DNA of 59,352 nt, taken from a virus (lineage: Duplodnaviria > Caudoviricetes). Positions 17,794 through 37,593 of this stretch are shown piece by piece; the stretch's first letter is position 1; the number at the start of each line of letters is the position of its first letter. The notes beneath the pieces were generated by a model that saw only the letters and a list, made by a program, of their open reading frames with translations, did not search any database and was not told where the DNA came from. The position numbers were made by a program, and so were the translations under genes. The stretch spans positions 1-59,352 of IMG/VR virus record IMGVR_UViG_3300037276_000070. One strand, given 5' to 3'.

Positions 17794-17839
17794 CTGCTGC
17801 CCTCGCCTGCAGCCGCCACCAACTCACCTAAGGAGTCCT

Positions 17840-18236: not shown

Positions 18237-18239
18237 CAG

Positions 18240-19166: not shown

Positions 19167-19338
19167 TACTAAACCTACCTTGCAGCGCCTGCTGGGCTGC
19201 ATTGGAGCCGGCAATGGCAATGACAATCATCACCATGGAGCCGGCAGTCTGTTCATCTTTCATTGCATCCAGTATAAACAAGAGAATGAGGGCTGTCAAG
19301 CCGATAAAGGTGCGACGGCAGTCCCATACATGTTTCAC
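19015..19338 (-). CDS. Holin candidate (2 TM)
   Basis: RRTFIGLTALILLFIL and MVMIVIAIAGSN segments; AAGGAG RBS. Confidence 0.6.
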   Translation of the reverse strand: MKHVWDCRRTFIGLTALILLFILDAMKDEQTAGSMVMIVIAIAGSNAAQQALQGRFSNAISTQLPSSALAPMSPGPGGTGSGPGGLSPSQHPAGSPGIQDGTSSVKC

Positions 19339-23006: not shown

Positions 23007-23013
23007 TTAGGCC

Positions 23014-24684
23014 TCACTTGGCTGGTACTAGTCCGCGTGCTTCAGCTTCCTTCAGTTTGTCCTTGTGGACAGGAATTTGGCCTGCTGACGGATTCTTGGG
23101 GTCAGTGTAGTATACGATATCTGAGCCGCCCTGTCCAGCTCCAGCTGGTGACGAGGCTGTTGGCGCCTTAGTGGCGGCAGCCGCTTCATCCTGGGCCTTA
23201 GTCTTGTCACCGAATGCACTGGTAGCATCGGACTTGATTGATTGGAGAGTCTCTGGCTTAATGCCCTTGTCCACGAAGTAGCCGCTAGCCTTATTGATAG
23301 CCTTCTCGTCCCCGCTGGCAAGAGCTGATTGATAAGCAGCAGATGCCTTGTCATAGGCTACCTGGTCCTGCTTATTCATCTTATCATAGCCCAACTGGTT
23401 CTTCAAGCCGGCAATCCGCTCCTGAGAAGCAATCCGCTTGTCTGTGTCAGAGGACCGACCGGCAACCCGGGCTCCCCAAATGTCCTTCTGAGTGGCGGAG
23501 CGCTCGTGCTCCCGTCCCGTCTCTGCCTGCTGCGTTTCTCGCTCGCGTCCAGTCTGTTGCTCTTGCGACACCACTTCGCGACCGGCCGCCTGAGCCCCTG
23601 CTTGCCGCTCCTTCTCCAGTCCTGTAGCTTCCTCGGACTTCCGCTGAAGGTCGGACAGATTGGTGCGCAGCTGTTCCAATGCGGTCTCGTACTGCTTGGA
23701 CCAGTCAGTCTTGTCGAATTTGAGGTGGGAGGTCGTATCGAATCCGGTCCTTGCTCCCTGAATGCCTGCCCCTATCTTGGACAGTGCCTGGCCGATTACT
23801 TCGCCTACCTGTGCCACACCTACTCGGTCCCGATTGGACTGGTATTCCTTGCGGTACAGGTCAGCCAGCTCGTCCAGCTTGTTTATCTTGGAGGTGTAAA
23901 GGGACGAGTCTCCGGTCTGCTTAGCCTGCTCCCTGAGTGCATCCATGCCATTGTCCACCTTGGAGGGCGGAGGTGGTGCCTTCGGTGTCTTGGTCTTGGC
24001 CTTGGCGGCTGCGGCTTGGACAGGGGCAGTGGGAGCGGCCTCCTCCGATGGCGCAGTAGGACCTGCAGCCACTTCGGGGATAGGAGCGGGGGTAGGAGCG
24101 GGGGTAGGGGGCTTCGGAGGCCCAGAGGTGGCAGCCAGGCCTCCAGCGGTGGCAAGAGCTGCCCCACCGGCTGCCAGTTCGCCTGGATTGGCCTTAGCGC
24201 CCATCCGCACCTTGTCTGCCAAGGTCTCTGGCTTGGTCGGGGTCGGAATGGAAGCAGGTCCTCCGGTGGAGGTACCGGTGCCGGCCTCGAATGGGAGGGT
24301 GTCTGGCATGGCACCTGGCGCGGTCCCTGACTCGACAGGGGGCTCTGCGTGTGAGCCATCGTCAGCCGGCTCCTCTGGCCCCCTCTGTGTCTCTTCTGGC
24401 TTGGGCGGCGCGGTCCCTGCCTCTGCAGGTGGCTCGGCTCTGCCGCCATCCTCTGGAGGGTTGTCGGTCTCAGTGGAGGCAGTCGATTCGCGGCCAGCCT
24501 TCACCTTATCCGCTAGGGTCGCGTCTTCAGGTGCCCCGGCCTTGCTGCCGATGCCCAAGAAGTCCTTGGCCTTATCAAGGTCGCCCTTGAAGCGCTCGAT
24601 GGCCGCCTTGCCCTCAGGGGACCCAAGGAGTTCATTGGCCTCTTTAGAGCCTTCTTCTACTAGGGATTCTGGTACTTCTGACAT
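23014..24684 (-). CDS. Internal virion protein candidate (Pro/Ala/Glu-rich N-terminus, coiled coil)
   Basis: 556 aa, AGGAG RBS, synteny. Confidence 0.65.
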   Translation of the reverse strand: MSEVPESLVEEGSKEANELLGSPEGKAAIERFKGDLDKAKDFLGIGSKAGAPEDATLADKVKAGRESTASTETDNPPEDGGRAEPPAEAGTAPPKPEETQRGPEEPADDGSHAEPPVESGTAPGAMPDTLPFEAGTGTSTGGPASIPTPTKPETLADKVRMGAKANPGELAAGGAALATAGGLAATSGPPKPPTPAPTPAPIPEVAAGPTAPSEEAAPTAPVQAAAAKAKTKTPKAPPPPSKVDNGMDALREQAKQTGDSSLYTSKINKLDELADLYRKEYQSNRDRVGVAQVGEVIGQALSKIGAGIQGARTGFDTTSHLKFDKTDWSKQYETALEQLRTNLSDLQRKSEEATGLEKERQAGAQAAGREVVSQEQQTGRERETQQAETGREHERSATQKDIWGARVAGRSSDTDKRIASQERIAGLKNQLGYDKMNKQDQVAYDKASAAYQSALASGDEKAINKASGYFVDKGIKPETLQSIKSDATSAFGDKTKAQDEAAAATKAPTASSPAGAGQGGSDIVYYTDPKNPSAGQIPVHKDKLKEAEARGLVPAK

Positions 24685-24731
24685 GCTATGCTCCTGTGCT
24701 GGCTACATAGCCTGCGTATACTTCTGGCATG

Positions 24732-25640
24732 TTACTGAACTCCCTGCTGTGTCTTTATGTTGCTGATTGCGTTCTGGTCCTGCTTGCCTTCAGTCTGGCT
24801 GTAGACAAGTCCTCCGACACCGGCTCCGATGGAGGCACCCGCCATGGCACCGGCAGGGGTTCCGCCGGTAACCACCCCACCAACAACTGCACCGATGACC
24901 ATGCCAGCCCCGGAGAATATGGCTGCGTTCGAGTTGGCCCTGTTCTGGGCCGCAGTCAGCTTCTGTTGCAGGTTGTAGGCCTGCTGGGCCAGCTGTTTCT
25001 GCAGGTCCTGATTCATTGTCTGATTCCAGGAGGCTGCCCCATTCTGCATGGTGTCCTGGATAACCTTCTGAGCCTGCTGCAGCATTGCCATCCTCTTCTG
25101 TGTCTGCTCGTGCACGTTCTGCTCGTACTGGTCCAGGTCATTCTGACTCTGGGCCTTGAAGATGGCCAAGTCTGCCAGCTGCCTGTCGTTGAAGATGGTG
25201 CGCCCCATGGCGTCCGAGGCGAACTGGTTCTGCTTGTCGATGAGTTCCTGTTTGACCTGCACGTTGATGGAGGACAATGTGTCTGTGTTCTTCTGACTCT
25301 GGGCCTGTACCGACAACTTCTTCTGACTCAGAGCTTGCTGGTCGGCCATGAACTGCTCTTGCAATCCCATAGCCCCAATCTGGGTCTCTCGCGTCTGACC
25401 GGTCTGGGCAGCTGAGAGGCCAATCTCTCCGGCCTGGGCTGTCTGCTGTCCGCCCATACTTTGCAGTTGGGAGGCCGTCGGCTTGGCGCCTGCCTGAGTG
25501 GCCTGCTGCACGGCCTGCTGCAGTCCTGTGACTCGCTGCGCCTGGCCTGCCTGTGCCTGTCCAGTGATACTCTGACCCACCTGGTTGGACAGGGTGGTCA
25601 GCTGGTCGGCCCTAGTTGTGTTTGGGGTAAGGTCTGCCAT
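24732..25640 (-). CDS. Internal virion/pilot protein candidate (Gln-rich coiled coil, C-terminal glycine zipper)
   Basis: GAGMVIGAVVGG...GASIGAGVGG segment. Confidence 0.7.
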   Translation of the reverse strand: MADLTPNTTRADQLTTLSNQVGQSITGQAQAGQAQRVTGLQQAVQQATQAGAKPTASQLQSMGGQQTAQAGEIGLSAAQTGQTRETQIGAMGLQEQFMADQQALSQKKLSVQAQSQKNTDTLSSINVQVKQELIDKQNQFASDAMGRTIFNDRQLADLAIFKAQSQNDLDQYEQNVHEQTQKRMAMLQQAQKVIQDTMQNGAASWNQTMNQDLQKQLAQQAYNLQQKLTAAQNRANSNAAIFSGAGMVIGAVVGGVVTGGTPAGAMAGASIGAGVGGLVYSQTEGKQDQNAISNIKTQQGVQ

Positions 25641-25643
25641 GTG

Positions 25644-26690
25644 TTATCCGCCTGCTGATGCATTAGGTACTTGGGTAAATGCATCTCCACCAGTCGCCGC
25701 CGTGGCCCCGCCGAAGCCTACTGGGTCTGTCAGCTGGTCAATGGAGACAGCTGGGGCTGCAGCTCCAGATGAGTCAACCGAAGAATCGGTGGCAGGAGCT
25801 GAGCCGGTCACATCGCCACCTGTCTCTCCGGCTGTATTTGCTGCGGCATACATCTGAGCGCCGCCTGACACGATGCCGCCTAGACCGGACCAGGCAGCTG
25901 TCATGGAGGCACCCTTGTTCTGAGCAGCCGCGATTGACATAGCAAACCCAAGGTCCATGGAGGCCAGGGTGGCCGTTGCATCTCGACCCTGCTGGCTCAT
26001 ATAGTTACGGAACTGCAAGTTGCTGGACATGAGGTCTGTCTCATCGGCAAAGATGCTGGTCTGGATGGCCTGCTGGAAGCCGGCAGCGGTGTCAGCACGT
26101 GACTTAGCTGCCGTGTCGTTCAATGTGGTCACGTACTTCTCATTTGAGAGACGAAGCATAAGGCCCACCTGCTCAACGCGGGCCTTGTCGTCAGCGACCG
26201 TCATATTGGCAATCTCGTCAGCCTTGGACTGCAGGATGCTGTTGACTGAGTCATTGAAGGAGGCCATCATGTCGACACGCTGTTGAGTCAGAGCGGCAGA
26301 GGCCGCACTGGTCTGTTGGGCCTGAGCCTGAGCCTGCTGGGCCTGAGCGGTGGACTGCATAGCACCCTGGGCGCCCAGGTTGGCGGCAGAAGTCAAGTTG
26401 TTGACCCCAGCCAGCTTCTCTGACAGAGAGGACATCTTGGCGCCAACGCCAACTCCTGGACCGGATGCCTTGCCCGTGGCTGCTGTTCCGGTTAGGGCTG
26501 CAAGTTGCTGCGTGTTAGTGCCGCCCGTGGGGCCGAAGCCTAGGGCCTGGCCCTGCTGGGTGGACGCATTGGTCATGTTCTGCGAGTTCTGCTTGATGGT
26601 ATTGAGCAGGGACATGCCGGTAGAGCCGGAATCGGTCGGAGATGATGCGGCGGCGGCAGCGGCAGGCATAGGTTGTGTGGTATCAGGCAA
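25644..26690 (-). CDS. Internal virion protein candidate
   Basis: 348 aa, A/Q/T/S-rich and helical; GGAGG RBS with TTG start. Confidence 0.65.
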   Translation of the reverse strand: MPDTTQPMPAAAAAASSPTDSGSTGMSLLNTIKQNSQNMTNASTQQGQALGFGPTGGTNTQQLAALTGTAATGKASGPGVGVGAKMSSLSEKLAGVNNLTSAANLGAQGAMQSTAQAQQAQAQAQQTSAASAALTQQRVDMMASFNDSVNSILQSKADEIANMTVADDKARVEQVGLMLRLSNEKYVTTLNDTAAKSRADTAAGFQQAIQTSIFADETDLMSSNLQFRNYMSQQGRDATATLASMDLGFAMSIAAAQNKGASMTAAWSGLGGIVSGGAQMYAAANTAGETGGDVTGSAPATDSSVDSSGAAAPAVSIDQLTDPVGFGGATAATGGDAFTQVPNASAGG

Positions 26691-29238
26691 TTAGTCCCCC
26701 TCCCTTTATTGAATTGGCAACCGCAGAACTCACAGAACCGAGAGCACCAGGCGCCTTACCTTCCGATGCAGCTACCTTGCCTGCTCCTTGGTTAGCTGCT
26801 GCCTGGTTGGCCGCACTCGCATTCTCATAAGTGGCCAGTTGTTTGGAGGCACCGGCCGCAATCTGCTGCCACTGGTAGGTCTCATAGGAGGTGAGACTGG
26901 TGTCAGCTGCCCGCTGCTGGGCAAGGGTCAGTAGAGAGGTCATTGCATTGTAGGAGGCGGTGTCGGATAACTGGGAGGGGGCAGAGGTGAGGGCCGCCTG
27001 GACAGACGGGAAAGCGGTACCCAAAGCGCCGGCAGCTTTGGTGTTTGTGACCTGTTGGGCCAGCTGGGTGCCCACGTCACTCACCTGCGTAACGGCGGAG
27101 GCATTTCCTGAGTTCTGAGCATACTGTTGCAACTGAGCAATCTGAGCAAGGCCCGCCTGGTTTGCTACCGGACTGTCGGACGTGGTGGTTGCCGAGGCCA
27201 AGGAGGAGGCTATGGAGCCGAATTGCTGCGGTGTCGGGGCCGTACCTCCGTTACTGCTTATCTGCTGCAGAACCTGATTGGCTACTGCATCAGGCAGGTT
27301 TACTGAGGAAGCTCCAGCACTGCCTAGCGAGGAGACCCAGGAGGCGCCTCCGGCCCCACCCTGCTGGATGGCCTGAAGCAGGTCGGTGGTACCCCCTGCT
27401 CCGACCGCAACCAACTTACCAGCATCAAGCTGCCCGTTGGTGGTGATTGAGGCAATGTCGGCTGACGTTACACCGAGAGTGTTGCCTGTGAAGGCAGAGC
27501 CTAGGATGGATGAGGCAGCTGCAAGGATTGCCACATTCTTAGTGACGACAGGCTGAGTGCCTCCACCTGTTATGGCAGAGATAGCCTGCGGTACCCCGAG
27601 CGTAGCATCATTCTGAGCCAGGTAGTTCACCTGAATCTGGTCTGTGTATGTCTTCATCACAGAGGAGGACGGGATGCTACCAGGTGGAAGGGACATAAGC
27701 TGCTGGAAGGTGGATGCGTTCATTACGGTCGGGGGCAGCTGAGCGGCCAGGGAGATGGATGCGGTCAGGTCGCTCGTCTGGCCTGAGAGGTTGTCCTGCG
27801 ACAGTTGGTAGAGGGTCGTACCAGGCTGATTGAGTGACTGCATCGCGGGAGGCAAGTTGCCCATGTTCAGGGCCTCCCCTGGGACGTAGCCGAGATAGGT
27901 TGATGCGGCTGTAGGCAGACTGGACATGGTATGCTGGATGGAAGCGGACTGAGTTGCCGCCGTGATAGCATCCTGGCCTATCCCTGCCCCATATTGCTGG
28001 AATGCTGTCAGGTTGTTTTGCACATAGGTGTTGAACTGGTCAGCAGCATCCTTGCCGATGATGCCTTCTAGGGCGGTCAAGTTGGTGGCAGCGTTGGCCG
28101 GGTCAGTCAGGCCCATGGCAAGTGCAGTCAGGTTGGTACTAGACAGCGCCTGGTCAAGTGGCACTGGAGTCGTGGTGCCTGGAACCGTGATGGTCAGATT
28201 GGAGGCGACCTGAGACGTGAGGGAAGCAACGGATTGCTCGGCTGTCGCGATACCGGTGGCACCTGCTGCCGTCAGGGTGGCTCTAGCTGCTGCTCGCACA
28301 TTTGCATTGGCGGTCGGGTCTGACAGGACGTTCATGGCACCTTGTGTGGTGTTAAACTTGCCAGACTGCACCGACTGTACTAGGGCTGACAGCTGCTCAG
28401 GAGTCATGCCGGCAATCTGTGAGCCAGTGACAGGAGTCTGCCCAGGGATGCTAAGGAGGGCACCCATCTGGTCGTAGGAAGTGAACCCGAACTGGGAGGG
28501 GTCCATCTGAGCCATTTTAATCTGAGCAGGGGCGTTCGAGTTGGCCGCAATTACGTTGGCTGCCTGTGTCTGCGGGTCACCCTTGTTCAGGTACATGGAC
28601 TGGAACGGATTGGCCCCGGCCGTAGCCCCGGACAGAGGGGTACCAGTAGCAGTGGAGACCAGGTCCATGGCATTCAGGATGGCCTGCTGACTGGCGGCAG
28701 GGTTGGCGATTGTCTCCAGAGCCGATGAGACGTCAGAGCCCTGAATGACCTGACCCGTCGGGTTCCCATTGGCATCTCGCACCTGGTAGGAAGCTGCAAT
28801 TTGGGAAGGGTCAACTGACATCCCTTGGACCGTCGTCGCTGCTGACAGCTTGCCCAGGTCGGTGGTGACCGTGTTCATGACACGGGTGGCCAAGTTGCCA
28901 GAGCCGAAGGCCTGCTGCATCTGCTGGGCCTGCTGGGCCTCGGCTGTGGTGGCTGCATTGGCCTGTGCTGTGTTCTGCTGTTCGCGAACTGCGGTACCTA
29001 GTCCCTGCGTGCCCTTGGTGGACAGCTGGACAGCGTTACGCAGTGCGTTGGGTGTTCCTGCCTGTGAAGCCTGTTGGGGTAGGCCTCCTGCGGTGGCGGC
29101 CTCTATTGGAGAGGCGGCAGCGGCACCGGACAGCTTGGCCACGTCCTGCGCAGAGCCGGTGAGGGTCTGAGCCCCCAACTTGACTTGCTGCTGGAGGCTG
29201 GTACCTGAGGGGGCTTGAGGAGAGGAGAGGTCAGCCAT
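26683..29238 (-). CDS. Internal virion protein candidate (A/Q/T/S-rich)
   Basis: 851 aa from an ATG after GGAGG; has its own promoter at 29358-29386. Confidence 0.7.
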   Translation of the reverse strand: MADLSSPQAPSGTSLQQQVKLGAQTLTGSAQDVAKLSGAAAASPIEAATAGGLPQQASQAGTPNALRNAVQLSTKGTQGLGTAVREQQNTAQANAATTAEAQQAQQMQQAFGSGNLATRVMNTVTTDLGKLSAATTVQGMSVDPSQIAASYQVRDANGNPTGQVIQGSDVSSALETIANPAASQQAILNAMDLVSTATGTPLSGATAGANPFQSMYLNKGDPQTQAANVIAANSNAPAQIKMAQMDPSQFGFTSYDQMGALLSIPGQTPVTGSQIAGMTPEQLSALVQSVQSGKFNTTQGAMNVLSDPTANANVRAAARATLTAAGATGIATAEQSVASLTSQVASNLTITVPGTTTPVPLDQALSSTNLTALAMGLTDPANAATNLTALEGIIGKDAADQFNTYVQNNLTAFQQYGAGIGQDAITAATQSASIQHTMSSLPTAASTYLGYVPGEALNMGNLPPAMQSLNQPGTTLYQLSQDNLSGQTSDLTASISLAAQLPPTVMNASTFQQLMSLPPGSIPSSSVMKTYTDQIQVNYLAQNDATLGVPQAISAITGGGTQPVVTKNVAILAAASSILGSAFTGNTLGVTSADIASITTNGQLDAGKLVAVGAGGTTDLLQAIQQGGAGGASWVSSLGSAGASSVNLPDAVANQVLQQISSNGGTAPTPQQFGSIASSLASATTTSDSPVANQAGLAQIAQLQQYAQNSGNASAVTQVSDVGTQLAQQVTNTKAAGALGTAFPSVQAALTSAPSQLSDTASYNAMTSLLTLAQQRAADTSLTSYETYQWQQIAAGASKQLATYENASAANQAAANQGAGKVAASEGKAPGALGSVSSAVANSIKGGGLIA

Positions 29239-29357
29239 GAAGAGGACCTCCGGTGGGGGGCTGTCTGGACCTATCACGTCGGGGACCTGTTGAGTCCCGT
29301 TCCCGAGTCGAGAGGCAGCTGGTGAGTTGCGAGCTCACCTGGCATCGACCTGAGTAC

Positions 29358-29386
29358 ACTATAGCAGTCTGAGGAGGAGTTGTCAA
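29358..29386 (-). promoter_or_regulatory. Strong sigma70-type promoter for the ejection-protein operon
   Basis: TTGACA-17-TATAGT with a TGn extension. Confidence 0.85.
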
Positions 29387-29628
29387 CAGGTATGCCGCGC
29401 CATTTGCGTGAAGTGGGGGAACACCTCCGCTCCGGTCCAGTCCTGCCCTTGTCCTCCCAGCTTCGGCCCCACAAGGCGCCTGGCCTACATAGCCTATGTG
29501 GGCCGAAGCCGACCGCCAAAGCAGGCTAGCTGGACCGGAACCGGCAAGTTCCCATAACAGTTCTCGCGGCATAGAGTCGCTAAGCATGTGTTGGCGCCTG
29601 TTATATAAAGGAGCTTTGTCGTGTTCTA
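29384..29628 (-). ncRNA. Putative rod-shaped structured non-coding RNA
   Basis: Nested inverted repeats 29391-99/29565-73, 29417-22/29548-53, 29431-40/29530-39, 29442-46/29521-25 and 29460-73/29497-509. G.U pairs favour the - strand, and there is a dedicated promoter upstream. Confidence 0.68.
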
Positions 29629-29634
29629 CACGTA

Positions 29635-29663
29635 AACGTAGCACACTTACCTCAAAATGTCAA
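29635..29663 (-). promoter_or_regulatory. sigma70-type promoter driving the rod RNA
   Basis: TTGACA-17-TACGTT with GTGTGC before the -10. Confidence 0.8.
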
Positions 29664-29673
29664 GCTGAGCCTA

Positions 29674-29688
29674 GGGGGGGGGGGGGGG
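29674..29688. repeat. G15/C15 homopolymer
   Basis: 15 consecutive G, 10 nt upstream of the -35 box on the - strand. Confidence 0.9.
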
Positions 29689-29691
29689 TGT

Positions 29692-32600
29692 TCACGTGCC
29701 GCCGTTCTGAGCCGGGGTTGGCCCGGAGGCCGCCTCCCTGATGCCCTTGAACGTGAGGCCTGCAACTGTGTACTTCAACTGGGTTATCTCTACAGGCTCG
29801 TCCTTCGTGGCATTCGTTATCTGGACCTGCATCCGTAGACATCTCTTATTCAGTATGGAATACCGGTAGGTTACCACCTTCTGATTGGTCGTATCCCCAA
29901 GTCCAGACGTCTGAGCATTGTTGGCTATGGTCGTGGAGTCTGCTGGGGTGAACTCGGTAGCCATGTCTGTGGCTGTCAGAATGGCCGTTCCTGTGCGAGT
30001 TCCGAGGCCGACCGGGTTCCGGTAGCTCACCTGCACGTACGGCACGTCCTTGCGCACGCCAGCATCCCCAAAGTCCATAGCACGGAGCGTTGCCGTCATG
30101 GCGATTGGCTGGTCGTCGTCCCGCCAGTCAGAGCTGTCCCCGTTCTGCCGGAGCTGGAACACCCGGCCATAGGTGGCAGCCATGTAGGAATTGTAGTCCA
30201 GATTGCACCAGCCGACCGACGAGCCTGGGACGCCCTGGTGCTGAGACCAGCTGCCCTCTTTGGTGCTGTACAGCTGGATTGTACTCGTGATGCCCTGCAT
30301 ACTGTACTCACGGGTACTGTTGTAGACAAAGCAGTTGGTAGGCTCCGGATTCCCGTTAGTATCAGAGTAGGTCGGTCCAAGGGCATTGGGGCCAGACTGG
30401 ACCATTGGGGTGCTGAGCCGGTAGAACGAGTGGCTGGAGAAGTTATGCCCGAAGCAGAGGTCTAGGCGAGTCAGGTCCACAGAGGAGCGCCAGAGGTTCT
30501 GCAGCCTGCGTCCCATGTACCAGATGCTCATGTCCTGCTGTATCTTATAGATGCCGGACTCGTTGGCAAACATGACCCCACCACGAACCGGGGTGACCGA
30601 GTAGGGGGCGGTGCAGCCGAGGCCCATGGTCTCCAGACGCTGAACCGGGTTGGCTCCTGCGGCCTTCTGCGCCACATTGACCAGGTAGATTGAGTTGGTC
30701 TTGAAGACCAGGATGACGGCATCCTTCATGGCGGCGCCGAACGTCGACTCACCAAAGAACGGGATGACTGCCGTAATCTCCTGCCCATCGGACGGATTCA
30801 CGTCGATTGCGCTGTCCGACTGTGAGTCCACCGTGGAGAACGGGTTGTCGAATATCTCAGCGAAGTTGGGGTAGGAGACCAGGAGGCGAGAGGCCATCCT
30901 GTTCTCAATGGTGCCGAGAGAGGAGCCCGGTGCTTGGTAGATGTTGGCTATGTATATCTTGAAGGCAGTCTCTGCGTATCCGCTTGGAATGGTGAGCTGG
31001 GCGACGGTCGGCTGATTCATCGGCTGCACGAACACAATCTGTCCGATGTCATATTCGCCGCCGGCATTGGCCGATATCCAGGGCTTGAACGTCTGCTGCC
31101 CTGCTACCGTTCGGTCTACCATGCGCATCGAGCAGTTTACAGCATTGGCAAGGAGCATGCAAAGGAGCGACTCGTTCTGAAGCTCAGAGGCGGTTACTCC
31201 ACCAGAGCTGGTCAGGAAGGCCACTTCGTTGAGCTGCAGCCCCTGGTCTGCTAGCTGGTTGGACCCGTTCACCCCCATCCAGACAGGCACGTCTCTCGGA
31301 TTGGTGGCGGTCACATAGGAGTCAACCTCATTGGCAGCAGTGAACGTGTACCCGGTTGGGGCTCCGGCCCATAAGATGGTGAATGCATTCGTCGTACTGG
31401 AGTGCACCTGCCACCAGCCGTAGAGGGCAAGAGAGAGGGAACTGGATGCTGCCTGCCTGAACAGGTAGACCCAGTCTCCTGCGACTAGGCCGTGGGCTGA
31501 CTTGGTGACAGTGAATGAGGGATTAGTAGATGCAGTGAAGTCATTAGGACCAACTGTCACGGTAGCGGTGGAAGGCAGTCTTACTGTTTGAGCAGAAGGA
31601 ACAGTAGCACCACTTCCTGTGAAGGATACAGTGTTGGTTGGATTTGCTGTATTCCAAGCTGTAACTACGGAAGTAACAGCACTAGACCCGTCGAAGACCA
31701 GCACCGGCTCAGGAGCACTACTGATGCTGCTTAGTGCGACTGCTCCAGATGCCACCACTTGGTACCTAGCAGTGCTGAGCATGTTGGTACTTGAACCAGG
31801 GGCCCCTTCGTCAATGTCGAGTTGCCAGAGGGAGGTACCTGTCGTGAGCTCGCTGGCGAGGAGTGGGGTTCCAAGGTGCTGATTCAGGATGGTAACGTCG
31901 ATGGTGGGGTCGCCAGTAATGTTAGCCAGTACCAGGCGATTGGAAGCTGACGTGACATGCTTAGCCCTGACCGGATTGGACCAGGTGGTTCCCAGTTCAG
32001 AGCCCTTGAGACCTGTATTGACTGGGTCCAGGTCGGCCAGCGAGACGTCAGGAGTTGTGTCCACCACGTCCAGGTAGCCGGTATGGGGGGCGAAGGGGAG
32101 GGGGTATGTGCCAATCAGGTAGTAAGGTGCAACCCCGTTCACCTTGGTGCGGTACACTTGCACTTCCAGGGCATCATAGTCGTAGATGTCCCAGGCAGGC
32201 AGACCGACAAGGCGTATGCGAACAGCTGCAGGTCCGGCCAGGGTTACCGTGAAGTCCTCGCTGCCTGTGGCTGCAGAGGCTATCACATTCTGATTCTTGT
32301 CAACCGCATTCAGGCGGAAGTAGTAGGAATAGGTGGCAGCCTGTTGGAGGGTATAGGCAGTCCCGCTGGTGGCACTGGTCCCCTTTATTGCCTGGTCTAC
32401 ATAGATTACGCCGACTTGGGTGGATGTGCCAGACACCGTGGTCTGAATCGTATCCGTATTTGTAACCGTATAGTAGATGGAAGCATCGGTCGAGGTACCG
32501 GTCATCAGCTGTACCCTGGTGCCTACTGCAAAGGTGGACACGTCGGCCTGCGCCACATAAAAGTGCGACTCATTCCAAGCAGCTGGGGTACCCCCTACAG

Positions 32601-35517
32601 GTAGCTCAGTATAGTAGACAAGGCTGCATGATGGCAGATTGAGCGGGATGCTGCCTGATGCAGGGTCTGCCGTATTCGCCTTAATGAACACATTCGGCTG
32701 CCAGCGGGGAAGGCCGGCTCTGTAAACTGAGGACCCGTCCACCTTGAGAGTCCTATCTACCCCGTTGTTTAAGAGAAGAAGGTCAGACACCATGGTTGAC
32801 CGCATTATGGGCTGGGCAGAGTAGGAGGAAGTGGGCAGGTAGGAAACGTAGGGGCCAGGAGTCTCTGGGGTGGCCCCTGAGCCTGTCGTTGTGGGGGCCT
32901 CTATTGGGGCCCAACGCCCAGCCACGTCGAACGTGTTGGCAGAGTCCACATCATCGGACCATTGCAGAGACTCATCGATGCCAACTGCATATCCGATAAG
33001 CGTCCCATCCTGACTGGCCACTACCTGAGTCGAGGCGAACTCGATGCCACTGGTGCCAGTAAGAGCCGTGATGACCTGAGTGCCTGTAAACACACCAGCT
33101 TGGGACAGAGCTATCTGGTCTCCTATCTGGAATGAGGTGTTCAGGTCAATAGAGAGAATAGCGGTGGCAACTTCCCCATCGGAGCTTAGACTGACTGCCT
33201 GATTCCCAACTGACACCACATTGGTTACACGAATGTTGCGGGCATAGGCATTCCCGGTTCCACTCAGCGTCGCCAGATTAGCCATATCGCCAGCCACCAT
33301 GCCATCAACCAGATTGCCAGCAGAGTCGGCAATAGACACACGAGCTACTCCATTGCTATCTCTGAGTGGGATGACGGAGGAAGTTCTCTGACCGGCAATC
33401 GGGGAGCCGCCTGGAATGAGGAGTGGCTCAGTCACGTTGGCAACAAGCACCTCTGTGCCCGAGGAGGCGAGGACCGATAGCAGCTCAGGTGAGGTGAACG
33501 CTTTGCCGGTCAGGGCATCACCAGGGAGAAAGGTGGATGTATTGGCAAAGGCGATGCGGTCAGTGAATACACCTACCCTGGCACCTGACTGAGCATCCTG
33601 ATAGTCTGCCGTCGTCAACGCCGGATTGCTGACCCATATCTGCAGAGTAGTTCCGACCAGGCTAACCTGTTCTACAGGGAACGTACCATCCTGCACAGAG
33701 TACGAGGCACCTTGAATTGTCAACTGGTCAGCAAAGCCGGCCGTGTTTCGAATGATGGAGGAGAGAGTTCCGACAATTGTGGGAGCGAGCAGTTCTATCG
33801 TGACCAGCATCCAGCCAGTCGAGGAGTCCCACACAATGGAGGAAGCCGGAACAAAGCCATTAGCGTTTGTGGCCTGTATGTAACCAGCCGACCGATTGGA
33901 TGTGCTTAGCGAATTCACAAAGACCGGGCCTAGGTAGTTATCTGAGGATGCCCGATTCTGCAAGTTAGGATAGAGCTGTGGGGTCGGTATGTCCGAGTTG
34001 GCCCCTTTGAAGAAGTTGCCTCCAAGTCCAGCTACCAGAAACTCCTCTGCGTCTGCCCTATACGAGTCCAGCTCGGTCACCCAGCCGGCAGTAGCGCCTG
34101 CCGTGTTCCCATATATGGATGAGTGGTCTAGGCCCCATATGGTCAATTGAGGGGAAGAGTCTGACCAACTGAGGCCAGTCACTGTGGAAGGGTAGACAGC
34201 CACTACATTGGTTACAACCTGCACCGTCTGCCAGTATAGGTCAATGTACAAGGAAGTGCCGGAGGCATTGGTTACGCTGACCGTTGTGAGACCGGTCGTG
34301 GCATCATAGGACACACTGTCCGGCAGTACGTAGGCCCTATTGCCGGTACCATCATCCGTGTATGCATCCATGAAGGTGAATGGGGTGGCAGTAGCAACTG
34401 ACTGGGTCACTGTAGCAAAGGGACCGACAGGGTACGAGGTCGAGTTTGCTTCTGGAGCTGCAGACAGACTGATGACAAGGGAGGTGGAGGCAGGCAGGTC
34501 AATGAAGGAGACAGACACATTGTCCGATGCATCTATCTGAATAGAGTCCGGTACAAGCTGCATTAGGGCAGTTCCGGTATTATAGAAACAGCGAACCTGA
34601 ATGGCACTGGTGGACAGTGCATGAGTGGCAGCAGAGATTGAGGCTGTATAGGAGCCAGAGACTGTTGCGGTGAAGATGTAGGTCTCATTCAGCGTCGCAG
34701 GCTTGGATGCATAGTAAACGAAGCCTCTGAATTCGGCGGAGGTTTCGTATGAGATGTCGGTCTCAAGTGTGCTCGAATTCACTCCGACTGCATTGGCGAT
34801 AAACTGCTGATTGGAGGTGTCGGTGGTCGAAGTGGACCTAGTCAACCCTACCCAAGTGTCTACTGTCGTCAAAGCTGATTGTACTTGGGGGATTGACAGC
34901 ACAAGTGGGGTGGAGGAGGCCGAGAAGGTATAGCGAGGGTCAGACAGAAAGGAGGGGTACCAGCGGGTTGTGTACGTTCCCTGTGGGAACTCTCCGCCAC
35001 CAGAGCTGTTCTGCTGACTGGTCAACCCAGCCACTTGAATGGCATGGCCAGTCAGGGGCAAGTCAATGCTGCTATCCAGCTGCAGGGTCACGTCCTCCTG
35101 CGGGACGGTCAACTGGTAGCCAAGTGGCAGGACCGGACCAGGGCTGCCTGAATAGGCCAACGGCACCGGAGATGAGTAGAAGGAGTTGAAGGAAGCGACC
35201 AGGGCAGATAGGGTCGAGCTGCCATCTCCTACCAGAATGGCAGGGACGTTCGGTGAGCCTACTACTCTGGTAACTGCATTTGTGTCTCCAGGATACGTAA
35301 CCCCAGGAGAGGGGACCTGGGCGGCACGTTGCACCCGTACAGGCAAATTGCCCCATACCCCCTGATAGCCTGGGCGCTTCTGCGCATATCCTTCGGGAGT
35401 CGGGTCCATGTTAATGAGGGATTCGCTAAACCCTTCTGGAATCGTGTCTTCCGAGGAGAGAGCGTCGATGCCCCCGCCCAAGTCACCATGAGGGACGGTC
35501 TGGAATTTCATTGCCAC
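29692..35517 (-). CDS. Large tail/nozzle (P22 gp10-like head-closure) protein with inserted beta domains
   Basis: 1941 aa. N-terminal GGID...N......KRPGY and C-terminal D...ITA.....ILVFKTNSIY...GC.APYSV propeller pattern; lies downstream of the adaptor. Confidence 0.72.
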   Translation of the reverse strand: MAMKFQTVPHGDLGGGIDALSSEDTIPEGFSESLINMDPTPEGYAQKRPGYQGVWGNLPVRVQRAAQVPSPGVTYPGDTNAVTRVVGSPNVPAILVGDGSSTLSALVASFNSFYSSPVPLAYSGSPGPVLPLGYQLTVPQEDVTLQLDSSIDLPLTGHAIQVAGLTSQQNSSGGGEFPQGTYTTRWYPSFLSDPRYTFSASSTPLVLSIPQVQSALTTVDTWVGLTRSTSTTDTSNQQFIANAVGVNSSTLETDISYETSAEFRGFVYYASKPATLNETYIFTATVSGSYTASISAATHALSTSAIQVRCFYNTGTALMQLVPDSIQIDASDNVSVSFIDLPASTSLVISLSAAPEANSTSYPVGPFATVTQSVATATPFTFMDAYTDDGTGNRAYVLPDSVSYDATTGLTTVSVTNASGTSLYIDLYWQTVQVVTNVVAVYPSTVTGLSWSDSSPQLTIWGLDHSSIYGNTAGATAGWVTELDSYRADAEEFLVAGLGGNFFKGANSDIPTPQLYPNLQNRASSDNYLGPVFVNSLSTSNRSAGYIQATNANGFVPASSIVWDSSTGWMLVTIELLAPTIVGTLSSIIRNTAGFADQLTIQGASYSVQDGTFPVEQVSLVGTTLQIWVSNPALTTADYQDAQSGARVGVFTDRIAFANTSTFLPGDALTGKAFTSPELLSVLASSGTEVLVANVTEPLLIPGGSPIAGQRTSSVIPLRDSNGVARVSIADSAGNLVDGMVAGDMANLATLSGTGNAYARNIRVTNVVSVGNQAVSLSSDGEVATAILSIDLNTSFQIGDQIALSQAGVFTGTQVITALTGTSGIEFASTQVVASQDGTLIGYAVGIDESLQWSDDVDSANTFDVAGRWAPIEAPTTTGSGATPETPGPYVSYLPTSSYSAQPIMRSTMVSDLLLLNNGVDRTLKVDGSSVYRAGLPRWQPNVFIKANTADPASGSIPLNLPSCSLVYYTELPVGGTPAAWNESHFYVAQADVSTFAVGTRVQLMTGTSTDASIYYTVTNTDTIQTTVSGTSTQVGVIYVDQAIKGTSATSGTAYTLQQAATYSYYFRLNAVDKNQNVIASAATGSEDFTVTLAGPAAVRIRLVGLPAWDIYDYDALEVQVYRTKVNGVAPYYLIGTYPLPFAPHTGYLDVVDTTPDVSLADLDPVNTGLKGSELGTTWSNPVRAKHVTSASNRLVLANITGDPTIDVTILNQHLGTPLLASELTTGTSLWQLDIDEGAPGSSTNMLSTARYQVVASGAVALSSISSAPEPVLVFDGSSAVTSVVTAWNTANPTNTVSFTGSGATVPSAQTVRLPSTATVTVGPNDFTASTNPSFTVTKSAHGLVAGDWVYLFRQAASSSLSLALYGWWQVHSSTTNAFTILWAGAPTGYTFTAANEVDSYVTATNPRDVPVWMGVNGSNQLADQGLQLNEVAFLTSSGGVTASELQNESLLCMLLANAVNCSMRMVDRTVAGQQTFKPWISANAGGEYDIGQIVFVQPMNQPTVAQLTIPSGYAETAFKIYIANIYQAPGSSLGTIENRMASRLLVSYPNFAEIFDNPFSTVDSQSDSAIDVNPSDGQEITAVIPFFGESTFGAAMKDAVILVFKTNSIYLVNVAQKAAGANPVQRLETMGLGCTAPYSVTPVRGGVMFANESGIYKIQQDMSIWYMGRRLQNLWRSSVDLTRLDLCFGHNFSSHSFYRLSTPMVQSGPNALGPTYSDTNGNPEPTNCFVYNSTREYSMQGITSTIQLYSTKEGSWSQHQGVPGSSVGWCNLDYNSYMAATYGRVFQLRQNGDSSDWRDDDQPIAMTATLRAMDFGDAGVRKDVPYVQVSYRNPVGLGTRTGTAILTATDMATEFTPADSTTIANNAQTSGLGDTTNQKVVTYRYSILNKRCLRMQVQITNATKDEPVEITQLKYTVAGLTFKGIREAASGPTPAQNGGT

Positions 35518-35522
35518 GTGGG

Positions 35523-35690
35523 TTATCCCTTAGCTTTAGGCTTGGGCTTCTTCTTAGTATGCTCTGGTATCTTGTCATAGTTGGCGGTCAGGTATTCCTT
35601 CGCCTTCTTGGGGTCGATGGAGATTGCATCCGAATCGCCATGAGCAGCTGCTGCCATTGCACGGAACTGGGCCTTGGACTTGGCTGGCAT
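35523..35690 (-). CDS. Small basic protein (MPAKSKAQ.R.M type)
   Basis: 55 aa with an N-terminal motif recurrent in phage late regions. Confidence 0.7.
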   Translation of the reverse strand: MPAKSKAQFRAMAAAAHGDSDAISIDPKKAKEYLTANYDKIPEHTKKKPKPKAKG

Positions 35691-35691
35691 G

Positions 35692-35883
35692 CTATGAACC
35701 GCCTGCAGTCGGAGCAGGCTTCTCTGGCCTATCCTCTTCTGCCTGCCTGGCATCCTCGTCGTCCAGGTCCTTCTCGCCCGTAGGGGAGTTGACCATGGCG
35801 CGAGCTCTGCGCTTGGCATCCCGGCTTGGCTCTGGTGGACCCTTGTCTTTGAGCAACTTCAGCAAATCCATTGGGTTTGGCAT
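35692..35883 (-). CDS. Small disordered protein
   Basis: AGGA RBS; LKLLKDKGPP motif. Confidence 0.65.
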   Translation of the reverse strand: MPNPMDLLKLLKDKGPPEPSRDAKRRARAMVNSPTGEKDLDDEDARQAEEDRPEKPAPTAGGS

Positions 35884-35899
35884 ACGAGTTCCTAGTTAG

Positions 35900-36076
35900 T
35901 TAGTATGGGCCTGCAACAGGAGTAGGTTCAATAGCAGCTTCCTCATCAGACTCCTCATCCTCTTTGTCGCCGCGAGCTGCTGCCTTTGCCGCCTTCTTCG
36001 CTTTGGCACTAGGCACCTTGTCGCGCAACCTGGCCATCAGCTCAGCTGCATTTGGGGTGTTAAAGGGGTCTGCCAT
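35900..36076 (-). CDS. 58-aa disordered protein (not in the ORF track)
   Basis: MADPFNTPNAAELMARLRDKVPSAKAKK...; AAGGAG RBS. Confidence 0.7.
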   Translation of the reverse strand: MADPFNTPNAAELMARLRDKVPSAKAKKAAKAAARGDKEDEESDEEAAIEPTPVAGPY

Positions 36077-36102
36077 ACTAGGCTCCTTGCTTGTGGAAGG
36101 GA

Positions 36103-36504
36103 TTAGAACCTGTTAAGGTACTCTGCTGCTTTGTGAACTACATCCTCGCCTAGTAATCCGATGCCTCTGTTGCAGGACATACATAGAATGGCTCGAACCT
36201 TCTTTGTCTTATGGTCATGGTCAACGGCAAATCGCTTCTTCTCAGCAGATTGTGGTTTACCGCAGCAGGCGCATAGTCCTTGCTGGGACTGAAAAAGTTC
36301 TTCATACTTAGCAACACATTCCATGGCAGATAGTTCTGGCCAAAACCGAGACTTCTTGAGACCAAGACCCCATTTATGTATGGGATTGAGTTTGCTCCAT
36401 AGCAGTTGTTTTGCCTTGCTACATGGTTTACATCGTCGCTCTTTCTTGAAATTATAGAACTCACTTGATTCTTTATACTCTTTACACTTTGAACACTTGA
36501 ACAT
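36103..36504 (-). CDS. Endonuclease VII-like HNH endonuclease
   Basis: CSKC..CKPC, QQGLCACCG and FAVDHDH...VRAILCMSCNRGIG motifs; AT-rich. Confidence 0.92.
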   Translation of the reverse strand: MFKCSKCKEYKESSEFYNFKKERRCKPCSKAKQLLWSKLNPIHKWGLGLKKSRFWPELSAMECVAKYEELFQSQQGLCACCGKPQSAEKKRFAVDHDHKTKKVRAILCMSCNRGIGLLGEDVVHKAAEYLNRF

Positions 36505-36510
36505 ATACAC

Positions 36511-36550
36511 CTCCACCTCTTAAGATACCAGAGATGGGAGTTATAGTCAA
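36511..36550 (-). promoter_or_regulatory. Promoter embedded in an RBS-sequestering hairpin
   Basis: TTGACT-17-TATCTT (36550-36522); the hairpin CTCCCATCTCT/AGAGGTGGAG covers the GGAG. Confidence 0.65.
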
Positions 36551-36584
36551 TTACCAACATTGTGTCCATATGTTTCATCAATAA

Positions 36585-37547: not shown

Positions 37548-37593
37548 CTGGATTCCTTATGCATTAGGTCAGACCGGTTCAGACCGGTTCAGA

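What the first reader, a model, noticed from the sequence alone, without database searches (positions are those of the whole stretch)
29384..29663. Promoter-driven rod-shaped non-coding RNA between the tail and ejection-protein operons
Seen: a near-consensus promoter (TTGACA-17-TACGTT, - strand) reads into ~245 nt with no credible ORF. The stretch folds as one long nested hairpin: TAACAGG/CCTGTTG, TATGCCGCG/CGCGGCATA, GGGAAC/GTTCCC, TCCGGTCCAG/CTGGACCGGA, CCTGC/GCAGG and GCTTCGGCCC-ACA/TGT-GGGGCCGAAGC, with internal bubbles. Several mismatches become G.U pairs only on the - strand. The downstream operon has its own promoter right after, so this is not needed as a leader. Known: 6S RNA is a ~180-200 nt bubble-containing rod that titrates sigma70 holoenzyme. 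Inference: this is a phage-encoded 6S-like RNAP decoy, a decoy for RNA-sensing defences, an RNase III substrate, or a virion-associated RNA.
Basis: partly seen in the sequence, partly recalled or inferred. Interest (0 to 1): 0.82.

Follow-up and report, generated by a model that had tools for sequence, protein, structure and literature searches.

The report
Long hairpin between two phage promoters
An uncultured peat phage has a roughly 220-base self-pairing stretch in the untranslated gap between two strong promoters ahead of a structural-gene operon; it is more likely a folded leader or cutting site within the messenger RNA than a separate regulatory RNA, and the evidence that the fold is selected is only moderate.

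Summary
The sequence facts hold. Two extended -10 sigma70-type promoters (29663-29635 and 29386-29358, - strand) belong to a class with 6 matches against 0.04 expected. They enclose an untranslated 247-nt spacer. Its 221-nt core (29603-29384), folded alone, forms a 73-bp interrupted hairpin (-102.9 kcal/mol, z -3.7).

The fold is weaker evidence than it looks:
- It is as good on the + strand.
- It ranks 8th of 2152 genome windows for rod length.
- No terminator follows it.
- In the full P1 transcript only the 13-bp apex stays probable.

No Rfam family matches, 6S included, even at E<=10. There is no large central bubble. The 6S-like reading is not supported.

Of 52 distinct relatives' junctions, 10 share the promoter-spacer-promoter layout. 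Their spacers are unrelated in sequence and mostly unstructured.

Best reading (0.4): a cis-acting folded leader or RNase III-type processing hairpin in a tandem-promoter module. Rivals: unselected quasi-palindrome (0.3), DNA-level site (0.14), stand-alone decoy RNA (0.08).

Expression, cleavage and covariation are untested. DNA of the closest relatives could not be fetched.

The parts
29674..29688 (-). C15 homopolymer. It starts 3 nt after the TGA stop (29694-29692) of the 1941-aa gene and ends 10 nt before the -35 box of P1.
   Evidence: Read. One contig of run X13 has the tract 3 bases shorter.
29635..29663 (-). Promoter P1: TTGACA, 17 nt, TGc-TACGTT (extended -10). The expected start is near 29628.
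   Evidence: one of 6 matches to TTGACA-N13-15-TGnTAnnnT, 0.04 expected. Relatives carry a promoter at the same place directly after the stop codon. Activity was not tested.
29384..29603 (-). Imperfect hairpin ('rod') of 73 predicted pairs. Helices of 7, 9, 3, 6, 3, 11, 6, 3, 13, 4, 3 and 2 bp, plus a 3-bp side hairpin. Internal loops 5x5, 3x9, 3x4, 4x1, 4x5, 2x3 and single bulges. Its last 3 nt are the TTG of the -35 box of P2.
   Evidence: fold and anatomy; controls; context dependence.
29457..29512 (-). Apical stem-loop: a 13-bp helix (UCGGCUUCGGCCC / GGGCCGAAGCUGG) with a structured tip. It is the only part of the rod that persists in the full-length transcript ensemble.
   Evidence: pair probabilities about 0.6-0.97; also kept.
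29358..29386 (-). Promoter P2: TTGACA, 17 nt, TGc-TATAGT. The expected start is near 29351.
   Evidence: 11 of 12, TG present.
29239..29351 (-). Leader of about 113 nt from P2 to the GGAGG ribosome-binding site and the ATG at 29238 of the 851-aa Ala/Gln/Ser/Thr-rich protein. It is not unusually folded (z +1.19).

Best explanation
The hairpin is a cis-acting RNA element inside a tandem-promoter module, not a separate gene. P1 sits directly behind the stop codon of the 1941-aa structural gene. P1 transcripts, and read-through transcripts from upstream, run through the 247-nt untranslated spacer, over P2 and into the next operon.

As the spacer is made it can close into a long interrupted helix. 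That helix contains two quasi-continuous stretches of about 20 bp (11+6+3 and 13+4+3) on either side of a 4x5 internal loop. This is the geometry double-strand-specific RNase III accepts. I infer that it serves as a processing and stability site. Cleavage would separate the upstream message from the downstream one and leave protective hairpin ends. The fold would also keep a long untranslated stretch compact.

Shown: the promoters, the lack of coding, the fold of the isolated segment, the absence of a terminator, and the layout in relatives. Inferred: transcription from P1, formation of the rod in vivo (it must win kinetically), and cleavage.
For: (1) P1 and P2 belong to a promoter class far beyond chance: 6 matches against 0.04 expected.

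(2) A census of 52 distinct junctions behind the homologous large gene found a promoter-like site in the gap in 36, and two sites 114-309 nt apart in 10. By eye, 4 more (L016, L024, L026, L035) have a second TTGAC site. The spacer is therefore a standing untranslated, promoter-fed segment in this phage group.

(3) There is no terminator-like site on the - strand in 17800-37700: 13 sites were found, all on the + strand, against a shuffle mean of 13.0. P1 RNA is therefore expected to continue into the operon.

(4) The isolated 221 nt folds at z -3.71, with 1 of 200 shuffles as good. It has 63 pairs in one unbranched stem-loop against 24.2 +/- 11.8 in shuffles.

(5) The anatomy meets the stated requirements for E. 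coli RNase III substrates. These are about two helical turns, with coaxial stacking of short helices allowed, and internal loops that restrict cleavage and leave 3' hairpins protective against 3'-5' exonucleases (PMC1540722, passages read).

(6) There are 7 G.U pairs on the sense strand against 2 in the rod on the other strand. The sense-strand structure loses 6.2 kcal/mol when evaluated on the + strand.

(7) No ORF explains the region.
Against: (1) The + strand folds as well or better, and 7 against 2 G.U pairs is not statistically decisive. The strand is therefore not settled by the sequence.

(2) Genome-wide the element is not unique. It ranks 8th of 2152 windows by rod length, and 21 windows have at least 60 pairs, several of them inside genes.

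(3) In the full P1 transcript the lower rod has pair probabilities of 0.09 or less. The whole transcript is no more stable than shuffles: z -0.43, 29 of 100 as good.

(4) Ensemble definition is ordinary: 18 of 150 shuffles are as well defined.

(5) There is no conservation to lean on. The 453-nt gap has no significant blastn or nhmmer match in the 70 related loci then held (best E 0.26) and none in 50,697 phage records.

(6) Of 12 relatives' P1-P2 spacers, only 1 (L029) has a sense-strand z below -2; the other 11 lie between -1.56 and +0.32. The closest relative's 94-nt hairpin has z -1.32.

(7) The two spacers of this phage's other tandem-promoter cluster are not folded beyond chance: z +1.97 and -0.05.

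(8) The host is unknown, so whether it has RNase III is unknown.

(9) Four peat runs showed no sequence difference in the covered parts of the hairpin, so there is no covariation signal.
Confidence: 0.4

Rival explanations
1. There is no selected structure. The spacer is a fast-evolving non-coding filler between two promoters. Its hairpin is a leftover quasi-palindrome (an old inverted duplication or template switch), or simply the upper tail of what GC-rich sequence gives.
For: - Rods of at least 60 pairs occur in 21 of 2152 genome windows and in 6 of 300 shuffles.
- Both strands fold equally.
- Ensemble definition is ordinary.
- The rod is not the favoured fold in the long transcript.
- Spacers turn over completely between relatives while the promoters stay.
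- In 2 of 5 pairwise comparisons the flanks align but the spacer interior does not. L040/L062 align only from P2 onward; L037/L040 align only over 58 nt covering most of P1 and the first bases of the spacer.
- Spacers elsewhere are unstructured.
Against: - z -3.71 with 1 of 200 shuffles as good.
- The hairpin fills the spacer almost exactly, and its base abuts P2.
- The arms are short helices separated by asymmetric loops rather than one decayed repeat. No gapped minus-strand BLAST alignment joins them.
- In one pair of relatives (L037/L039) the alignment covering P1 and most of the spacer is more conserved (86.4% over 280 nt) than the flanking coding DNA (68.7-78.1%). Spacers in this group are therefore not always neutral.
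Confidence: 0.3
2. The element works at the DNA level. The palindromic DNA would be a binding region for a regulator of P2, or of both promoters, or a structure-prone site such as a cruciform, or a site for replication or packaging. It would work as double-stranded or extruded DNA rather than as RNA.
For: - The fold is strand-symmetric, and with DNA parameters z is -4.41 with 0 of 200 shuffles as good.
- A near-perfect 23-bp palindrome lies at 29482-29504: 11-nt arms, 91% complementary, 1 nt between them.
- The base of the rod overlaps the -35 box of P2.
- In 10 of 12 relatives the equivalent spacer is an array of the palindromic tetramer GTAC, at 22-80 per kb against 3.1-6.5 per kb in the rest of the locus. 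That looks like a protein-binding array.
- The P1 spacer sequence is nearly identical in L037, L062 and L029, which suggests an operator.
Against: - The arms are interrupted by many asymmetric loops, which is poor for cruciform extrusion.
- By my own estimate, about 2 palindromes of the 23-bp quality are expected by chance in 59 kb.
- No motif is strongly enriched in the window's spacer. The best is GGCGCC, 2 sites. GTAC occurs 0 times here.
- There is no other copy of any arm near the other promoters beyond chance-level 12-mers.
- The phage encodes an endonuclease VII-like protein, which by established knowledge cuts branched DNA. Extruded cruciforms would therefore be a liability.
Confidence: 0.14
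3. One reading: a stand-alone non-coding RNA of about 245 nt, made from P1 and released at the base of the rod, acting in trans. It would be a 6S-like RNA polymerase decoy, a double-stranded-RNA decoy, or a virion RNA.
For: - P1 is credible and sits directly before the element, and the downstream operon has its own promoter.
- If the RNA ended near 29384, the rod would be its dominant fold (centroid -99.5 kcal/mol, close to the minimum-energy fold).
- The element has no ORF support.
Against: - No Rfam hit at gathering score or at E<=10.
- No central bubble: the largest loops are 5x5 and 3x9.
- No terminator-like site on this strand.
- No homologous RNA in relatives.
- The two other promoter-to-promoter segments of the same phage are unstructured. 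The layout alone therefore does not mark RNA genes.
Confidence: 0.08

Closest known systems
RNase III processing hairpins of phage polycistronic transcripts (T7 R0.3, R1.1 and others)
   Same: Both are irregular hairpins between cistrons of a long phage transcript, next to a promoter. Both have about two helical turns on either side of an asymmetric internal loop. Processing is thought to leave protective 3' hairpins (requirements quoted from PMC1540722). That T7 sites sit beside promoters, and that R1.1 has a 4/5 loop, is recalled and comes from no call.
   Different: This element is several times longer (73 predicted pairs over 220 nt against about 60-nt hairpins, recalled). It lies between two host-type sigma70 promoters. 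It shares no sequence with T7 sites. Cleavage is untested and the host is unknown.
6S RNA (Rfam RF00013)
   Same: Similar size (about 200-250 nt), largely double-stranded, and promoter-driven.
   Different: No covariance-model match even at E<=10. No large central bubble imitating an open promoter (the role of the bubble is described in PMC8545117, passages read). No defined 3' end.
rrn-operon-style leaders (tandem promoters, boxA, long RNase III stem), reported by earlier notes of this scan for phiEco32-like phages
   Same: Both have tandem strong promoters followed by untranslated folded RNA that leads into genes. This phage shares SU10/phiEco32-type portal and adaptor families. Directly 5' of the rod lies GCTCCTTTATATAACA, which resembles boxA GCTCTTTAACAA with insertions (the boxA consensus is recalled and matches the motif quoted).
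   Different: The E. coli-type boxA is not enriched in the window: 31 matches at up to 3 mismatches against 29.2 expected. None lies after P1 or P2. The host's own boxA is unknown.
Promoter-stem-loop cassettes of T4-type phages (PeSL; recalled, no call)
   Same: A promoter plus stem-loop in intergenic DNA. The conserved promoter parts flank variable content across relatives.
   Different: PeSLs flank variable ORFs in early regions. Here the variable content is non-coding and sits in the structural-gene arm.
Miniature inverted-repeat elements and intergenic palindromic repeats (MITE, ERIC, Correia)
   Same: An imperfect palindrome of a few hundred bases in an intergenic gap that can carry promoter-like ends.
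   Different: It is single-copy in the genome. I saw no target-site duplication. No other copy was found in viral contigs with an arm pattern; the single hit was a chance match inside a gene.

Membership tests
6S RNA (RF00013) | Match to the family covariance model | tested here: not met
   0 matches at gathering score in the whole window. 0 matches at E<=10 in 29150-29800, both strands.
6S RNA (RF00013) | Large central single-stranded bubble that imitates an open promoter | tested here: not met
   The largest internal loops of the predicted rod are 5x5 and 3x9 nt. This rests on a predicted structure only.
6S RNA (RF00013) | Discrete stable transcript with a defined 3' end | tested here: inconclusive
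   No terminator-like site on the - strand in 17800-37700. Processing cannot be excluded, and no RNA data were available.
6S RNA (RF00013) | Binds sigma70 holoenzyme and templates product RNA | not testable with these tools
   Needs a gel shift and a pRNA synthesis assay.
RNase III processing hairpin | Quasi-continuous double helix of about two turns | tested here: met
   Helices 11+6+3 bp and 13+4+3 bp, interrupted only by 4x1, 0x1 and 1x0 bulges. The criterion is from PMC1540722. The fold is predicted, for the isolated segment.
RNase III processing hairpin | Internal loop or bulge at the cleavage region | tested here: met
   A 4x5 internal loop between the two 20-bp stretches.
RNase III processing hairpin | Lies within a longer transcript between cistrons | tested here: met
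   It lies between the stop codon at 29692 and the ATG at 29238. Promoters lie upstream and no - strand terminator was found. Transcription itself was not observed.
RNase III processing hairpin | The structure forms in the real transcript | tested here: inconclusive
   At equilibrium in the 429-nt P1 transcript only the apex persists, and the lower rod pairs are at 0.09 or less. Co-transcriptional folding could still form the rod first.
RNase III processing hairpin | Cleaved by RNase III | not testable with these tools
   Needs an in-vitro cleavage assay, or a comparison of rnc mutant and wild-type hosts. The host is unknown.
Conserved structured RNA (any) | Base pairs kept by compensatory change in relatives | tested here: inconclusive
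   There are no alignable homologues. Four peat runs are identical over the covered parts.
Intrinsic terminator | GC-rich hairpin followed by a U run | tested here: not met
   No - strand site in the scans. The rod is followed by ACAACUCCUCC.
MITE / repeated palindromic element | Several copies, terminal inverted repeats with target-site duplication | tested here: not met
   No second copy in the window beyond 10-13-mers at chance level. One chance hit in viral contigs. No duplication seen at the ends. Host genomes could not be searched because the host is unknown.
rrn-style antitermination leader | boxA element downstream of the promoter | tested here: inconclusive
   The E. coli-type boxA is not enriched: 31 matches against 29.2 expected. 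There is a loose look-alike, GCTCCTTTATATAACA, 19 nt after the -10 box of P1. The host's boxA is unknown.

The most novel reading that the evidence does not exclude
The promoter-spacer-promoter module behind the large tail-type gene is a conserved slot for non-coding cargo in this family of uncultured podophages of about 60 kb. Different lineages carry different promoter-fed untranslated inserts:
- arrays of 6-16 GTAC motifs;
- 15-17-nt tandem repeats;
- in this phage, a 220-nt double-stranded rod.

These inserts would be made as abundant RNAs cut out of the P1 transcript. They would act in trans as decoys or sponges for a host nuclease, RNA-binding protein or RNA-sensing defence. The window's rod would then be a double-stranded-RNA decoy rather than a mere processing site.
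Probability: 0.12. Interest if true: 0.7.

Novelty: new variant of a known kind. Interest (0 to 1): 0.3.

Why it matters
If the hairpin is a processing or stability site, it extends the T7-style logic of a promoter plus an RNase III hairpin between cistrons to a deeply divergent group of environmental podophages that rely on host sigma70 polymerase. No protein tested here from this group matched the 50,697-record phage collection, and most matched no family.

The family-level pattern is the more useful lead. Two strong promoters bracket a non-coding insert that is lineage-specific and, in one pair of relatives, more conserved than the flanking genes. This gives a concrete, testable place to look for phage non-coding RNAs or regulator-binding arrays in uncultured phages.

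If the fold is unselected, the case is a useful caution. An appealing 73-pair hairpin with z -3.7 can still be within reach of chance at genome scale.

Tried and rejected
HOMOLOGY OF THE ELEMENT
- blastn (distant mode) of 29200-29760 against 50,697 phage records: no match.
- blastn and nhmmer of the 453-nt gap against the 70 related loci then held: best E 0.26.
- The scan's own index: nothing.
- Arm pattern TCCGGTCCAG-N80-100-CTGGACCGGA in viral contigs: one hit (L004), inside a coding region of an unrelated high-GC contig. I rejected it as chance.

CLOSER RELATIVES
- The 851-aa protein found none in viral contigs.
- The portal found two contigs at 69% identity. One is too short. The other ends inside the large gene, at residue 1468 of 1941.
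- The adaptor found only the contig already held as L006.
- Profile scans gave 41 viral, 25 metagenome and 1 genome loci, all at 28-44% best-segment identity.
The contigs of the 13 closest proteins (50-58% identity over the C-terminal part) could therefore not be read.

EXPRESSION. No RNA holder was listed among the 24 runs, so nothing can be said about expression. Parts of the stretch had no contig cover in some of the 4 runs laid. I draw nothing from those holes.

CODING. The five ORFs of 49-137 aa over the element have no Pfam match at E<=1 except a 0.3 hit to MoaF, below its cut-off. No frame is consistently open in the relatives' spacers.

DIFFERENTIAL TRANSLATION. The ribosome-binding site is mostly paired in both the P1 and the P2 transcript models (mean unpaired 0.55 against 0.51), so I dropped this idea.

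boxA. Not enriched. The single 1-mismatch match, at 6454-6465 (+), lies in an unrelated gap.

MOTIF ARRAY IN THE WINDOW'S SPACER. Nothing beyond two GGCGCC sites.

FLANKING GENES. The 1941-aa and 851-aa proteins match no PHROG, Pfam or PDB sequence. The Atlas gave only a weak lead to crAss muzzle proteins at score 0.89. 'Tail' and 'ejection protein' therefore remain labels by position and composition.

LITERATURE. A search for '6S RNA' with 'phage-encoded' and 'bacteriophage' found 12 papers, 11 listed. I saw only the listing, plus passages of PMC8545117, which concern the host's 6S RNA. I saw no phage-encoded 6S RNA there, but that is not a claim that none is in print. A search for tandem promoters with RNase III, bacteriophage and hairpin found 3 papers, none relevant by title. 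Supplementary files were not consulted.
Full report
WHERE IT IS. The window is a complete-looking virus record of 59,352 bases with terminal repeats. It holds a P22/SU10-type portal, an SU10-type adaptor, a family A DNA polymerase, a large terminase, a major head protein and an endonuclease VII-like gene. Its portal and the DNA of the finding match nothing among 50,697 deposited phage records. Near-identical DNA occurs in 23 of the 24 listed runs, all labelled peat metagenome.

The finding lies in a 453-nt gap on the - strand. Upstream is the stop codon (29694-29692) of a 1941-aa protein. Downstream is the ATG (29238) of an 851-aa Ala/Gln/Ser/Thr-rich protein. Neither protein matches a PHROG, Pfam or PDB sequence. 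'Tail' and 'ejection protein' are therefore labels by position only.

ANATOMY OF THE GAP (- strand):
- a C15 run at 29688-29674;
- promoter P1: TTGACA 29663-29658, 17 nt, TGc-TACGTT ending at 29635;
- about 25 nt that include GCTCCTTTATATAACA;
- a hairpin from 29603 to 29384;
- promoter P2: TTGACA 29386-29381, 17 nt, TGc-TATAGT ending at 29358, with its TTG forming the last three bases of the hairpin;
- a leader of about 113 nt, then GGAGG and the ATG.

ARE THE PROMOTERS REAL? The generic scan lists only P2 (11 of 12 positions), because the -10 box of P1 matches TATAAT at 3 of 6 positions. Both promoters carry the extended -10 TG. The pattern TTGACA-N13-15-TGnTAnnnT occurs 6 times in the window against 0.04 expected, and 0 of 100 shuffles reach 6. 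The six sites are P1, P2, three tandem sites at 54919, 54692 and 54487 on the same strand, and one at 15325 (+).

Relatives support P1 by position. The 1941-aa protein has 441 homologues at E<=0.001, in proteins of about 1700-2800 aa. I fetched 41 viral, 25 metagenome and 1 genome loci. Among 52 distinct junctions behind the homologous gene, 36 have at least one promoter-like site in the gap. Ten have two sites, spaced 114-309 nt apart. By eye, four more (L016, L024, L026, L035) have a second TTGAC site just outside my rule. In the window the spacing is 277 nt. The promoter-spacer-promoter layout is therefore a recurring feature of part of this phage group.

IS THE HAIRPIN REAL, AND BEYOND CHANCE? 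Folded alone, 29604-29384 (- strand) gives one nested hairpin of 73 pairs (46 G-C, 20 A-U, 7 G.U) at -102.9 kcal/mol. The z-score is -3.71 and 1 of 200 shuffles folds as well. The helices are 7, 9, 3, 6, 3, 11, 6, 3, 13, 4, 3 and 2 bp. The loops are 5x5, 3x9, 3x4, 4x1, 4x5, 2x3 and single bulges.

Four controls temper this:
- Strand. The + strand folds to -104.0 kcal/mol. For the 257-nt stretch z is -4.8 on + against -3.2 on -. The sense strand has 7 G.U pairs against 2 in the rod on the other strand. Its structure loses 6.2 kcal/mol when evaluated on the + strand, whereas the + structure loses 3.9 kcal/mol on the - strand. This is a lean towards the sense strand, not proof.
- Rod shape. The largest unbranched stem-loop has 63 pairs against 24.2 +/- 11.8 in shuffles, and 6 of 300 shuffles reach 60.
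- Genome scale. Of 2152 windows of 221 nt on both strands, 21 have rods of at least 60 pairs. This one ranks 8th, and it is among the most stable of those. In a regression of energy on GC content it is about 2.4 sd below the line, 9th on its strand.
- Context. In the 429-nt RNA expected from P1 (29628-29200), the free fold is -158.0 kcal/mol, with z -0.43 and 29 of 100 shuffles as good. Enforcing the rod costs 5.7 kcal/mol. The lower rod pairs have probabilities of 0.00-0.09, while the 13-bp apex 29512-29500/29469-29457 stays at about 0.6-0.97. Ensemble diversity of the isolated element is matched by 18 of 150 shuffles.

The rod is therefore a real possibility for the isolated or nascent RNA, and a moderately unusual one. 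It is neither unique in the genome nor thermodynamically dominant in the long transcript.

IS IT A SEPARATE RNA GENE, AND IS IT 6S-LIKE? No Rfam family matches the window at gathering score. None matches 29150-29800 at E<=10. 6S RNA works by imitating an open promoter with an initiation bubble (PMC8545117, passages read). Here the largest internal loops are 5x5 and 3x9 nt. No terminator-like site exists on the - strand between 17800 and 37700. All 13 sites found are on the + strand, which equals the shuffle mean of 13.0. Nothing in the sequence therefore ends a P1 transcript before the operon.

The phage's other two promoter-to-promoter segments (54884-54687 and 54656-54482) fold no better than shuffles, with z +1.97 and -0.05. 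The layout does not by itself mark RNA genes. An ORF is also not the answer. The one open sense frame (137 aa) begins inside the -10 box of P1 and overlaps the next gene. It has no Pfam match, and the relatives' spacers are rich in stops in most frames.

WHAT RELATIVES ADD. The window's gap has no detectable sequence similarity to any related locus (best E 0.26), so covariation could not be tested. Of 12 relatives' P1-P2 spacers, only L029 has a sense-strand z below -2 (-4.45, from palindromic tandem repeats). The other 11 lie between -1.56 and +0.32. The closest relative held (L047) has a 94-nt nested hairpin ending just before its P2, but with z -1.32 and 19 of 200 shuffles as good.

Conservation is mixed across five pairwise comparisons:
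- L037/L039: the alignment covering P1 and most of the spacer is 86.4% identical over 280 nt, against 68.7-78.1% for coding flanks.
- L038/L062: 77.1% against 72.5% and 64.0%.
- L016/L026: 72% throughout.
- L040/L062: the flanks align, but the gap aligns only from P2 onward.
- L037/L040: the flanks align, but the gap aligns only over 58 nt covering most of P1 and the first bases of the spacer.

In 10 of the 12 spacers the tetramer GTAC is 5- to 18-fold enriched, at 22-80 per kb against 3.1-6.5 per kb in the rest of the locus. The window, L016 and L026 have none. The slot is conserved. Its content is lineage-specific, and in some lineages it is clearly under constraint. The window's hairpin is one idiosyncratic filling of that slot.

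POPULATION DATA. Contigs of four peat runs laid on 28800-30200 show no difference inside the covered parts of the hairpin. Three single-base differences were seen, all in run X20 and all in the flanking genes (29141, 29178, 29890). In run X13 the C tract is 3 bases shorter.

MOST LIKELY MECHANISM (confidence 0.4). The hairpin is a cis element of the mRNA. P1 transcripts and read-through transcripts cross it. As it emerges it can close into two quasi-continuous helices of about 20 bp (11+6+3 and 13+4+3) around a 4x5 loop. That meets the published reactivity requirements of bacterial RNase III. These are two helical turns, with coaxial stacking allowed, and internal loops that limit cleavage and leave 3' hairpins protective against exonucleases (PMC1540722, passages read).

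This is how T7 organises its long transcripts (recalled). The arrangement also resembles rrn leaders with tandem promoters and a long processing stem. Earlier notes of this scan reported rrn-style leaders in phiEco32-like phages. I tested that lead and found no enrichment of E. coli-type boxA: 31 matches against 29.2 expected. There is only a loose look-alike after P1.

Steps shown: promoters, non-coding status, fold of the isolated segment, absence of a terminator, and layout in relatives. Steps inferred: P1 activity, formation of the rod in vivo, and cleavage.

RIVALS.
- An unselected quasi-palindrome in a fast-evolving spacer (0.3) fits the genome-scale and context controls.
- A DNA-level site (0.14) fits the strand symmetry, the DNA-parameter z of -4.41, the 23-bp near-palindrome at 29482-29504 and the GTAC arrays of relatives. 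It fits the many asymmetric loops poorly.
- A stand-alone decoy RNA (0.08) is not excluded, but no feature tested here favours it.

VERDICT. The element is best filed as a new variant of a known kind of phage intercistronic RNA hairpin, with moderate statistical support and no comparative support. Interest is modest. The family-wide promoter-spacer-promoter slot, with its lineage-specific non-coding content, is the part most worth following up.

Noticed in passing
window 15325-15353 (+), 29358-29386, 29635-29663, 54458-54487, 54663-54692, 54891-54919 (-): A six-member class of extended -10 promoters (TTGACA-N13-15-TGnTAnnnT) against 0.04 expected by chance. Five lie on the - strand in two tandem clusters with 205-277-nt spacings.
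   Followed up: partly
   Followed up: yes
L024, L029, L033, L035, L037, L038, L039, L040, L047, L062 (spacer between the two promoters behind the large gene): GTAC arrays. There are 2-16 copies in 90-279 nt, which is 22-80 per kb against 3.1-6.5 per kb in the rest of each locus. Some form tandem repeats: about 15 nt x5 in L029 and about 17 nt x4 in L040. This looks like a binding-site array, either DNA or RNA. The motif is absent from the window's spacer.
   Followed up: partly
window 29674-29688 (-): A C15 homopolymer starting 3 nt after the stop codon of the 1941-aa gene. It is 3 bases shorter in one contig of run X13. Runs of at least 5 C occur in 12 of 36 relatives' gaps, against runs of at least 5 G in 6 of 36; the longest C run there is 8. 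The tract can pair with GGAGCGGAGGTGTTC in the 3' arm of the rod (15 nt, 80% complementary).
   Followed up: partly
L037:4757-4785, L062:1152-1180, L029:9178-9206: The P1 promoters of three phages whose coding DNA is only about 65-75% identical share an almost identical stretch between the -35 and -10 boxes (…AAAyyACAATCCGAGTTATAAT). This suggests an operator over P1.
   Followed up: no
L037:4758-5024 vs L039:3300-3577: The alignment covering P1 and most of the non-coding spacer is 86.4% identical, while the flanking protein-coding DNA is 68.7-78.1% identical.
   Followed up: partly
window 36103-36516 (-): An endonuclease VII-like gene (phrog_2633, E 6.6e-26) sits between the adaptor gene and the 1941-aa gene, inside the structural arm.
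   Followed up: no
window 29264-29270 and 29433-29439 (-): The leader of the downstream gene contains GGUCCAG, which can pair with CUGGACC of the rod's 3' arm. In the equilibrium fold of the long P1 transcript, the 3' arm pairs with the leader instead of the 5' arm. Accessibility of the ribosome-binding site did not differ between the P1 and P2 transcript models.
   Followed up: partly
They are probably a by-product of the repeats.
   Followed up: no
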